Shown piece by piece: positions 44,870 to 45,305 of a stretch of DNA of 64,000 nucleotides. Source of the DNA: Escherichia coli (GTDB lineage: Bacteria > Pseudomonadota > Gammaproteobacteria > Enterobacterales > Enterobacteriaceae); the NCBI RefSeq assembly GCF_050920415.1, contig NZ_CP169309.1. One strand, given 5' to 3'. The notes beneath the pieces were generated by a model. The model searched no databases. It saw only the letters and a list, made by a program, of their open reading frames with translations, and was not told the origin of the DNA. The translations under genes and the position numbers were made by a program. Each line of letters starts with the position of its first letter. Positions within the stretch are counted from its first letter, which is position 1.

Positions 44870-45305
44870 ATGTAAATTATCAATAAAAGGCGTTATTTTA
44901 TAATTATTTATAATGAGTTATGAGTGTTTATTTTATTACGGTTGGTAGAGATATACAAAAAGTATTTTTTTACAGTGGGTTCGCTATTTTAAAAAGGAAT
45001 TCGTATGAGAAAAAATATAATTATGTTATTTATTGGCAGATTGAATTGACAGGGGGCAGAAATCTGAGGGTAAGAAAAGTCAGCAACTACAATCCACTAC
45101 ATCAACAGACCAGCAATCGCGTGCCGCGATACGCTGGAAATACCCGTAGATTGAACTGGCGGATGGTGTGACTGACATCGGTCAGTGATGACTTTTTAGC
45201 AAACTATGTTCGATCAGTCAGCATATTTGCTGACTGGTCGAATTGACTAACAATGATGTTAACTTACTCTTTTTCCTGATGATCTATTTTTGGGTTGTGA
45301 GTGTT

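What the first reader, a model, noticed from the sequence alone, without database searches (positions are those of the whole stretch)
44870..45305. Non-coding gap where K-12 carries yfbK (vWA-domain protein): possible deletion scar
yfbL and elaD are separated by only 436 bp of AT-rich non-coding DNA. From memory, K-12 has a ~1.7 kb gene (yfbK) here. The gap holds a 14-codon mini-ORF (45005-45049, MRKNIIMLFIGRLN*) with a good Shine-Dalgarno (AAGGA, 7 nt upstream) that looks like a truncated signal peptide, a thrice-repeated ATTGAAYTGRC-like motif, and a perfect 9-bp palindrome CAGTCAGCA-TATT-TGCTGACTG (45215-45236).
Basis: partly seen in the sequence, partly recalled or inferred. Interest (0 to 1): 0.4.

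Follow-up and report, generated by a model that had tools for sequence, protein, structure and literature searches.

The report
Decayed remnant of deleted yfbK gene
The gap between yfbL and elaD is the leftover of the yfbK gene after about 1.5 kb was deleted; about half of all sequenced E. coli, including O157:H7 Sakai and BL21(DE3), carry the same scar, so it is an ordinary gene-loss relic, not a new element.

Summary
Every base of window 44870-45305 aligns to the K-12 yfbL-yfbK-elaD locus.

- **Anatomy.** The gap holds the yfbL/yfbK divergent intergenic region and three pieces of yfbK: nt 1-132 with frameshifting indels, a 21-bp island matching nt 1456-1476, and the last 39 nt with the stop codon. 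Then come the yfbK/elaD intergenic spacer with its hairpin, and 47 nt of elaD tail put out of frame by a 1-bp deletion.
- **Mini-ORF.** It is the decayed YfbK lipoprotein signal peptide. It is not conserved among scar carriers: ATG is ATA in EC24, and CRE389 has an 11-bp deletion.
- **Repeated motif.** This is coincidence.
- **Palindrome.** It is the ancestral stem-loop between the convergent yfbK and elaD genes, and K-12 has it too.
- **Frequency.** The same two junctions occur in 2580 of 5426 complete E. coli genomes; intact yfbK occurs in 2514.
- **Other losses.** A different Escherichia species lost yfbK through a different deletion.

The one unexpected point is a block of about 320 bp left of the scar (yfbL codons 1-20, the intergenic region, the yfbK 5' piece). 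It is only 65-76% identical to yfbK+ alleles, which is between-species divergence.

Interest is low.

The parts
43895..44869 (-). yfbL (M28 metallopeptidase), intact, 324 aa. It is the left neighbour, and its promoter lies inside the 'gap'.
   Evidence: ORF list and translation. Pfam Peptidase_M28 at E = 4e-26. dN/dS is 0.25-0.30 against other E. coli alleles.
44810..45128 (.). Deeply diverged haplotype block linked to the scar. It covers about the first 20 codons of yfbL, the intergenic region and yfbK fragment A. The left edge is approximate.
   Evidence: Identity to yfbK+ alleles is 65-66% in the intergenic region and 76% in fragment A, against 93-97% in the body of yfbL. Site patterns switch near 44800. 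The split is bimodal across 5426 genomes: 91-100% in scar carriers and 70-72% in yfbK+ carriers.
44870..45004 (.). yfbL/yfbK divergent intergenic (promoter) region, 135 bp, 23.7% G+C. K-12 has 137 bp here.
   Evidence: Alignment to K-12. Sigma-70-like hits lie at 44877-44904 (+) and 44930-44903 (-), but no more than shuffles give.
45005..45128 (+). yfbK fragment A, corresponding to K-12 yfbK nt 1-132. It keeps the Shine-Dalgarno sequence (44994-44998) and the ATG, and has indels of -3, -1 and -4 nt. It contains the 14-codon mini-ORF at 45005-45049.
   Evidence: Alignments. There are 26 mismatches in 124 aligned sites. The mini-ORF is not conserved among scar alleles.
45129..45149 (+). yfbK fragment B, a 21-bp island corresponding to K-12 yfbK nt 1456-1476 (codons IRWKYPQ). 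In this window the last codon is mutated to TAG.
   Evidence: Local alignment gives 19 of 21 matches to K-12 and GF4-3, and 0 of 500 shuffles reach that score. The island is present in all scar alleles examined.
45150..45188 (+). yfbK fragment C, the last 39 nt (K-12 nt 1690-1728), encoding IELADGVTDIGQ plus the TGA stop at 45186-45188.
   Evidence: Alignments. There is 1 mismatch in 39 against K-12.
45189..45258 (.). Ancestral 70-bp spacer between the convergent yfbK and elaD genes.
   Evidence: It aligns to the K-12 spacer with 6 substitutions in 70 bp.
45208..45243 (.). It probably forms the 3'-end hairpin of elaD mRNA, and formerly of yfbK mRNA. No T-run follows it on either strand.
   Evidence: Fold energies and z-scores. 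It is conserved in K-12 with a perfect 15-bp stem, and in the other alleles. The terminator scan does not call it. There is no Rfam match.
45259..45305 (-). Ancestral 3' end of elaD, put out of frame by a 1-bp deletion at 45309-45310. The ancestral stop codon is at 45259-45261.
   Evidence: Three-frame translation against K-12 ElaD. PGAP annotates a 'frameshifted' elaD in the identical genome.
45306..46481 (-). elaD ORF (391 aa). All of its Pfam domains lie within residues 30-366.

Best explanation
The interval is the relic of the lipoprotein gene yfbK, which encodes vWA and YfbK_C domains.

**What is shown.**
- An ancestral yfbK lying between yfbL and elaD lost nt 133-1455 (1323 nt) and nt 1477-1689 (213 nt).
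- Three pieces remain: A (nt 1-132), B (nt 1456-1476) and C (nt 1690-1728).
- Piece A has since picked up frameshifting indels, so the old start codon now opens only a 14-codon ORF.
- The flanking parts are not debris. The 135-bp AT-rich stretch is the shared yfbL/yfbK promoter region and must still hold the promoter of the intact yfbL gene. The stem-loop at 45208-45243 is the old hairpin between convergent yfbK and elaD, and it still sits 15 nt downstream of the ancestral elaD stop codon.
- The allele is one old event, or one pair of events, because the junctions are identical in about 48% of complete E. coli genomes.

**What is inferred.**
- The scar itself has no function.
- Any transcript started at the relic yfbK promoter would be a short RNA of about 330 nt ending at the hairpin.
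- The mini-ORF product, if it is made at all, is not under selection.
- yfbK is dispensable and is lost repeatedly in enteric bacteria.
For: **Synteny.** K-12 has the order elaD - yfbK - yfbL.

**Homology to both arms.** Window 43898-45128 matches K-12 yfbL + intergenic region + yfbK nt 1-132. Window 45149-46481 matches the last 40 nt of yfbK + spacer + elaD.

**Fragment B.** The 21 bp between the two arms match yfbK nt 1456-1476 at 19 of 21 positions, and 0 of 500 shuffles do as well.

**One shared event.** Both junctions are identical in EC24, 21AH004, CRE389, O157:H7 Sakai and BL21(DE3) and in all 56 metagenome contigs that carry the piece-A marker. A 151-nt probe spanning both junctions matches in one contiguous piece in 2580 of 5426 complete genomes.

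**The alternative allele.** 2514 of 5426 genomes hold at least 80% of yfbK.

**Decay, not conservation.**
- The start codon is ATA in EC24.
- CRE389 has an 11-bp deletion.
- Codon 3 is present in some alleles and absent in others.
- The last codon of piece B is CAG, AAG or TAG depending on the allele.

**Nothing else found.** Rfam has no match apart from a chance hit at E = 0.77.

**Independent losses.**
- A second Escherichia species (L009) retains nt 1-119 + 1586-1728, a junction that cannot be derived from this one.
- The EC67 type has a larger deletion running from the intergenic region into elaD.
- IS1 sits inside yfbK in strain CUPF12.
- In Salmonella, yfbK is a pseudogene in Paratyphi C, absent in Typhi and Paratyphi A, and disrupted in other lineages (PMC2640428 Table 3; PMC3853940; bioRxiv 10.1101/2020.09.09.288845).
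Against: - No expression data were available, so 'no function' for the relic transcript and the mini-ORF rests only on lack of conservation across four aligned alleles and the junction variants.
- Both deletions are whole numbers of codons (441 and 71). That has a 1-in-9 chance of happening at random and could hint at a period when a shortened protein was tolerated or selected.
- No genome carrying only the first deletion exists among 5426. So two separate steps cannot be told apart from one complex event.
- Piece A and the intergenic region are far more diverged from yfbK+ alleles (24-35%) than pieces B and C (5%; Fisher p = 0.005). A simple deletion inside a K-12-like allele does not explain this.
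Confidence: 0.9

Rival explanations
1. The scar arose when foreign DNA was imported, not by a deletion within one chromosome. Under this reading a segment from a deeply diverged Escherichia lineage replaced the yfbL 5' end, the intergenic region and the yfbK 5' end. One crossover was homologous and lay inside yfbL near window 44800. The other join was illegitimate, linking yfbK nt 132 to nt 1456 (homology-facilitated illegitimate recombination). The result is still a yfbK relic, but the A|B junction would be a recombination joint.
For: **Divergence changes at the junction.** Piece A is 76% identical to K-type alleles and the intergenic region 65%, against 95% for pieces B + C.

**The block is as diverged as another species.** It is as far from K-type alleles as either type is from the other-species locus L009. 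Fixed-site patterns go from W=K≠O: W=O≠K: K=O≠W = 104:3:0 in the body of yfbL to about 14:32:23 inside the block. Here W is the scar type, K the yfbK+ type and O is L009.

**The block never occurs with intact yfbK.** It is never attached to an intact yfbK in 5426 genomes or in 56 metagenome contigs.

**No microhomology.** The A|B junction shows none.
Against: - The diverged block could just as well have extended into the now-deleted part of a mosaic yfbK allele, with the deletion coming later. The data cannot separate the two orders of events.
- No donor lineage was found.
- The second deletion, at the B|C junction, needs a separate explanation.
- Old presence/absence polymorphisms are expected to keep a diverged island beside them, because recombination across the heterology is suppressed.
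Confidence: 0.2
2. The relic has been re-used. Either the mini-ORF (or the ~44-aa ORF that PGAP calls a 'hypothetical protein' in some scar strains), or a short RNA running from the old yfbK promoter to the hairpin, is a functional small protein or sRNA.
For: - The Shine-Dalgarno sequence and the ATG are retained in this window.
- A 10-of-12 sigma-70-like site lies at 44877-44904 on the + strand.
- A strong hairpin lies downstream.
- PGAP annotates a hypothetical protein over the scar in some genomes, for example WP_254911077.1 in 21AH004.
- The 151-nt scar core is 95-99% identical across carriers.
Against: - The start codon is lost in EC24.
- Frames and lengths differ between alleles, through an 11-bp deletion and a codon indel.
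- In this window a TAG interrupts the reading frame that PGAP annotates in 21AH004.
- Promoter-like hits are no more frequent than in shuffled sequence.
- There is no Rfam family and no Pfam match for the 83-aa ORF at 44920-45171.
Confidence: 0.05
3. The short spacer is the ancestral state and yfbK was inserted in the K-12 lineage.
For: About half of E. coli genomes lack yfbK, and elaD next door is itself a patchy, low-G+C gene.
Against: - The spacer contains the yfbK start region, an internal 21-mer and the yfbK stop region, in the right order and orientation. An empty site would contain none of them.
- Intact yfbK sits at the same position in another Escherichia species (L008). By the cited papers, Salmonella carries the gene as well.
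Confidence: 0.01

Closest known systems
yfbK (b2270) of E. coli K-12: an uncharacterised periplasmic lipoprotein with vWF_A, VWA and YfbK_C domains
   Same: The locus is the same, between yfbL and elaD, in the same orientation. The Shine-Dalgarno sequence and start codon, the first 132 nt, an internal 21-mer and the last 39 nt with the stop codon are all recognisable.
   Different: About 1536 of 1728 nt are missing. No domain-coding sequence survives and the 5' piece is frameshifted. It is a relic, not a gene.
Deletional decay of bacterial pseudogenes. That bacterial genomes show a deletional bias is general knowledge and was not tested here.
   Same: There is a large internal loss followed by small indels and point mutations that differ between carriers. 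Neighbouring genes decay in some carriers too: a 326-bp deletion or an IS3 insertion in yfbL, and frameshifts in elaD.
   Different: The allele is not a rare, recent lesion. It sits at about 48% frequency with identical junctions, and it is linked to a block of about 320 bp with between-species divergence.
K-12-specific segments seen when K-12 is compared with O157:H7 or with B strains
   Same: O157:H7 Sakai and BL21(DE3) both lack yfbK and carry this exact scar. The difference has therefore been present in public reference genomes for years.
   Different: I found no paper that describes this particular scar. Of the 29 papers that mention yfbK, the 25 that were listed show none on this topic by title, and the 2025 ElaD distribution paper does not mention yfbK.
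Stem-loop shared by convergent genes (bidirectional terminator or 3'-end stabiliser)
   Same: It is a stable 16-pair hairpin in a 70-bp spacer between two converging stop codons, and it folds on both strands.
   Different: There is no T/U-run on either side and the consensus scan does not call it. Terminator activity was not tested.

Membership tests
yfbK gene remnant (pseudogene relic) | Same chromosomal position and orientation as yfbK, between yfbL and elaD | tested here: met
   The K-12 annotation and the identities of the flanking genes.
yfbK gene remnant (pseudogene relic) | Nucleotide homology to the 5' end of yfbK, including the ribosome-binding site and start codon | tested here: met
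   Window 45005-45128 aligns to yfbK nt 1-132. The 259-bp stretch made of the intergenic region and piece A hits yfbK+ genomes at E = 2e-21.
yfbK gene remnant (pseudogene relic) | Nucleotide homology to the 3' end of yfbK, including the stop codon | tested here: met
   Window 45150-45188 matches yfbK nt 1690-1728 at 38 of 39 positions.
Functional yfbK gene | Intact ORF encoding the vWF_A, VWA and YfbK_C domains | tested here: not met
   K-12 YfbK has these domains at residues 102-568. The window lacks nt 133-1455 and 1477-1689 and is frameshifted.
Conserved small-protein or leader-peptide gene | Start codon, reading frame and length conserved among carriers | tested here: not met
   The start is ATA in EC24. 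CRE389 has an 11-bp deletion, and other alleles differ by a codon indel.
Intrinsic (Rho-independent) terminator | G+C-rich stem-loop | tested here: met
   A 16-pair stem with -28.2 kcal/mol and z = -5.9.
Intrinsic (Rho-independent) terminator | Run of T/U immediately 3' of the stem | tested here: not met
   The consensus scan does not call it. The 3' flanks are TTGACTAAC on the + strand and CATAGTTTG on the - strand.
Known RNA family (Rfam 15) | Match at or near a family's gathering score | tested here: not met
   The only hit scores 14.4 bits against a gathering score of 290.8, at E = 0.77.
Insertion-sequence or mobile-element scar | Sequence foreign to the yfbL-yfbK-elaD locus, or terminal inverted or direct repeats at the junctions | tested here: not met
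   Every base of 44870-45305 aligns to the K-12 locus. The junctions show no microhomology beyond a single ambiguous G at B|C.

The most novel reading that the evidence does not exclude
The yfbK+ allele and the scar allele could be an old dimorphism held at about 46% and 48% in E. coli. The scar is welded to a block of about 320 bp (the yfbL signal-peptide codons, the shared promoter and the yfbK 5' end) that is as diverged from the yfbK+ type as a different Escherichia species is. That would mean one of two things. Either the block was introgressed from an unsampled lineage and the deletion was created at the illegitimate end of that import. Or selection, for example phage or host pressure on an exposed vWA lipoprotein, has kept both states for longer than the species has existed.
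Probability: 0.15. Interest if true: 0.4.

Novelty: already known. Interest (0 to 1): 0.13.

Why it matters
It matters little in itself. The result shows that an AT-rich 'non-coding gap' with a tempting mini-ORF, a repeat and a palindrome is fully explained as gene debris plus the regulatory ends of its two neighbours. Annotators should not call the 14-codon ORF, or the 'hypothetical protein' that PGAP places here in some strains.

There are two modest points of wider use:
- yfbK joins the genes lost again and again in enteric bacteria. It was lost by at least three different routes in Escherichia and by further routes in Salmonella, which argues that it is dispensable or costly in some niches.
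- The sharply bounded, species-level diverged block beside the scar is a compact example for studying how old presence/absence polymorphisms, or imports of foreign DNA, shape E. coli genomes.

Tried and rejected
1. **Wrong first reading of the junction.** I first read the 20-bp unaligned junction as a decayed copy of yfbK nt ~1594-1627. From that I considered a shared origin with the L009 scar, with small secondary deletions (note). A local alignment against the whole gene showed instead that it is nt 1456-1476, so I dropped that idea. L009 lacks piece B but keeps nt 1586-1688, so the two scars are independent.
2. **L009-type junction in E. coli.** I searched with 444 nt in distant mode. No genome covers at least 80% of the probe.
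3. **Genome with only the first deletion.** I searched with a synthetic 170-nt junction probe and found none among 5426 genomes.
4. **Intact yfbK with a scar-type 5' end in metagenomes.** The specific pattern gave 0 hits. The general marker gave 56 contigs, all carrying the scar.
5. **Outgroup scan.** The genome-contig scan with YfbL returned only 2 loci.
6. **RNA and signal scans.** Rfam, the promoter scan and the terminator scan gave nothing beyond chance.
7. **Motif as a recombination substrate.** I rejected this. Only the copy at 45150 touches a junction. The copy at 45040 reads differently in K-12 (TTGATTTTGTC), and the third copy is specific to this window.
8. **Literature.** None of the 25 listed papers that mention yfbK concerns this scar, judging by title, and the ElaD distribution paper does not mention yfbK.

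Full report
**Checking the observation**

The interval is bounded as described. yfbL is the ORF at 43895-44869 on the minus strand (324 aa, Peptidase_M28). An elaD ORF occupies 45306-46481 on the minus strand (391 aa, ElaD/SseL N and C domains plus Peptidase_C48).

- **Mini-ORF.** 45005-45049 encodes MRKNIIMLFIGRLN*. AAGGA lies 6 nt upstream of the ATG.
- **Palindrome.** The 9-bp palindrome is at 45215-45236 and is the core of a 16-pair stem-loop over 45208-45243. Its folding energy is -28.2 kcal/mol (z = -5.9) on the + strand and -23.0 kcal/mol (z = -5.2) on the - strand.
- **Composition.** The gap is 35% G+C against 52% for the window.
- **Motif.** The 'thrice-repeated' motif has two exact copies and one copy with two mismatches. 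Matches of that quality are not enriched: 8 were observed against 5.6 expected, and 20 of 100 shuffles do as well.
- **One correction.** Relative to K-12, elaD has lost one T at 45309-45310. Its ancestral stop codon is at 45259-45261, so the right-hand 47 bp of the gap are elaD tail that is now out of frame. PGAP calls elaD 'frameshifted' in the one complete genome that is 100% identical to the window, NZ_CP169399.1.

**What the interval is**

K-12 MG1655 has the order elaD, yfbK (1728 bp, opposite strand), yfbL. A BLAST of the window against that segment gives two arms. Window 43898-45128 matches yfbL, the 137-bp intergenic region and yfbK nt 1-132. Window 45149-46481 matches the last 40 nt of yfbK, the 70-bp spacer and elaD.

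At base level the mini-ORF lies exactly on the yfbK start. K-12 reads ATG CGA AAT AAA AAT ATA ATC ATG..., encoding MRNKNIIMLLMSSLILSGC, a lipoprotein signal peptide with a lipobox. The window has lost one codon and then 1 + 4 nt, so the frame breaks before the lipobox.

On the other side, ATTGAACTGGCGGATGGTGTGACTGACATCGGTCAGTGA at 45150-45188 is the YfbK C-terminus IELADGVTDI(S/G)Q plus the stop codon.

The 21 bp left between the arms are not filler. ATACGCTGGAAATACCCGTAG matches yfbK nt 1456-1476 (ATTCGCTGGAAATACCCGCAG, codons IRWKYPQ) at 19 of 21 positions, a score that 0 of 500 shuffles reach.

So the scar is three yfbK pieces, A, B and C, separated by losses of 1323 nt and 213 nt. Every base of 44870-45305 is accounted for by the ancestral locus.

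- **Motif copy at 45040.** This is decayed signal-peptide sequence. K-12 has TTGATTTTGTC there.
- **Motif copy at 45150.** These are the I-E-L-A codons of piece C.
- **Third motif copy.** It differs from GAATTAATTAAC, which K-12 and all other scar alleles have at that position.
- **Stem-loop.** It is present in K-12 as a perfect 15-bp palindrome. It sits in the spacer between the two converging stop codons, so it predates the deletion. It has no T-run and the terminator scan does not call it. Its role as the 3'-end hairpin of elaD mRNA is therefore an inference.
- **RNA and protein families.** Rfam gives nothing. The 83-aa ORF at 44920-45171 has no Pfam match.

**How common the scar is, and whether anything is conserved**

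A 151-nt probe spanning both junctions matches in one contiguous piece in 2580 of 5426 complete E. coli genomes. At least 80% of yfbK is present in 2514 genomes.

The A|B|C junction string is the same in EC24, 21AH004, CRE389, O157:H7 Sakai and BL21(DE3). It is also the same in all 56 metagenome contigs carrying a piece-A marker. This points to one old event.

No genome has only the first deletion. So two steps cannot be told apart from one complex event.

After the event the alleles drifted:
- The mini-ORF start codon is ATA in EC24.
- CRE389 has an 11-bp deletion inside the mini-ORF.
- 21AH004 keeps the codon that the window has lost.
- The last codon of piece B is CAG, AAG or TAG depending on the allele.

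That is the pattern of unconstrained sequence. The 44-aa 'hypothetical protein' that PGAP calls over the scar in some strains is interrupted by the TAG in this window.

**Recurrent loss of yfbK**

- **L009.** This GTDB species representative is labelled E. coli SCPM-O-B-8794 but is only 82-86% identical to K-12 in this region. It has rbn, a yfbK relic and yfbL. Its relic keeps nt 1-119 and about nt 1586-1728. It therefore lacks piece B but retains sequence that the window has lost, which makes it an independent deletion.
- **EC67-type strains.** These have a deletion from the intergenic region (window 44933) into elaD.
- **Strain CUPF12.** IS1 is inserted in yfbK.
- **Salmonella.** yfbK is a pseudogene in Paratyphi C and absent from Typhi and Paratyphi A (PMC2640428, Table 3). 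It is disrupted in a Typhimurium DT12a strain (PMC3853940). It is listed among the disrupted coding sequences of Typhimurium U288 (bioRxiv 10.1101/2020.09.09.288845).
- **Function.** The function of YfbK is unknown. One paper refers to it as a free periplasmic vWA-fold protein (PMC12204202).

**The one unexpected feature**

The left arm of the scar haplotype is unusually diverged. Identity between scar-type alleles (window, CRE389) and yfbK+ alleles (K-12, GF4-3, 1344_LBHALD, Escherichia sp. L008) by segment:

| Segment | Identity |
|---|---|
| 3' and middle thirds of yfbL | 93-97% |
| 5' third of yfbL | 88-93% |
| Intergenic region | 65-66% |
| Piece A | 76% |

Both allele types are 74% (intergenic region) and 82-85% (piece A) identical to the other-species locus L009.

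Fixed-site patterns change sharply near window 44800. In the body of yfbL the counts for 'scar = yfbK+ ≠ L009', 'scar = L009 ≠ yfbK+' and 'yfbK+ = L009 ≠ scar' are 104: 3: 0. Inside the block they are about 14: 32: 23.

Across all genomes the 259-bp intergenic region plus piece A is bimodal. It is 91-100% identical to the window in scar carriers and 70-72% in yfbK+ carriers. Pieces B and C, by contrast, differ from K-12 at 3 of 60 sites against 26 of 124 for piece A (Fisher p = 0.005).

The scar is therefore tied to a block of about 320 bp whose split from the yfbK+ type is as deep as a species split, and the block ends at the A|B junction. Two readings fit:
- An old mosaic allele whose transition point was removed by the deletion.
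- An import of diverged DNA whose illegitimate end created the deletion.

I could not separate them, and I found no intact yfbK with the scar-type 5' end. The outgroup scan returned only two loci, so other Escherichia species remain unchecked.

**Verdict**

It is an ordinary gene-loss relic that has been present for years in public reference genomes, including O157:H7 Sakai and BL21(DE3).

The functional parts of the interval are most likely only two: the yfbL promoter region and the hairpin downstream of elaD. yfbL itself is intact, with dN/dS of 0.25-0.30.

No paper I could search describes the scar. That reflects its ordinariness, not novelty. Interest is low. The diverged block is the only part that might repay a population-genetic follow-up.

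Noticed in passing
window 45259-45310: elaD has a 1-bp deletion in a T-run at 45309-45310 (TT here, TTT in K-12). The ORF therefore stops at 45306 and loses the last 12 residues ([16 protein letters not shown] becomes a stop after ...DLE). All Pfam domains lie upstream of the change. PGAP labels elaD a frameshifted pseudogene in the identical genome, and elaD is also annotated as frameshifted in CRE389, GF4-3 and 1344_LBHALD.
   Followed up: partly
window 43230-43291: nuoN is followed by yfbM after only 62 bp. K-12 has yfbN, yfbO and yfbP (about 2.6 kb) between them. 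Sakai, GF4-3, CRE389 and EC67 share the short form, while Escherichia sp. L008 has yfbN. This is a second presence/absence polymorphism, two genes away from the scar. In EC24 an ISEcB1 element lies between nuoN and yfbM, and BL21(DE3) also has ISEcB1 next to yfbM.
   Followed up: partly
window 41000-49500: The whole neighbourhood is unusually diverged from other E. coli. It is about 95-96% identical to K-12 even in nuoN, rbn, elaA, elaB and menF. yfbM has dS of 0.31-0.41 against other alleles. Only one complete genome (MFDS1022581, Korea, animal-source food) is 100% identical over the 1.4-kb probe, and the next best is 94%. The strain belongs to a rare lineage, or this region is a recombination import.
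   Followed up: partly
window 44282-44607 (compared with L003, L010, L012): EC24, O157:H7 Sakai and BL21(DE3) carry a further deletion of about 326 bp inside yfbL, and their yfbL is annotated as a frameshifted 'hypothetical protein' or not annotated at all. The '207-1401' match class suggests this form is common among scar carriers. In 21AH004 an IS3-family element truncates yfbL. So yfbL is decaying in many scar haplotypes, although it is intact in this window.
   Followed up: partly
L009 4619-4863 (minus strand of the locus): The independent yfbK relic in the non-coli Escherichia genome keeps an unbroken 41-codon ORF with a complete lipoprotein signal peptide and lipobox (MRNKNIIMLIIGGLILTGC...QQL*). 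It could still be exported as a tiny lipopeptide. That locus also lacks elaD and has a different hairpin (ATCTGTTTGCC...GGCAAACAGAT) after the relic.
   Followed up: no
window 44715-44749: A terminator-like site lies on the + strand inside the yfbL coding region, antisense to yfbL. It has a 9-pair stem (ACAGTTTGTGTAAGATAACGAACTGT) followed by TTTTTTCTAAT. The sequence is conserved in K-12-type alleles. It may be chance.
   Followed up: no
window 45129-45188: Both internal losses in yfbK are whole numbers of codons (441 and 71), so pieces B and C stay in the original reading frame (IRWKYP*IELADGVTDIGQ*). The chance of this at random is about 1 in 9, so I did not pursue it.
   Followed up: no
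L007 4459-4626 (EC67); window 44933 and 46371: A third allele class has one deletion that removes the yfbK side of the intergenic region, all of yfbK and all but 111 bp of elaD. Separately, elaD is absent from L008 and L009, and the 2025 ElaD paper reports that it is absent from phylogroup B2 lineages ST131 and ST95. The locus is therefore a hotspot of independent gene loss.
   Followed up: partly
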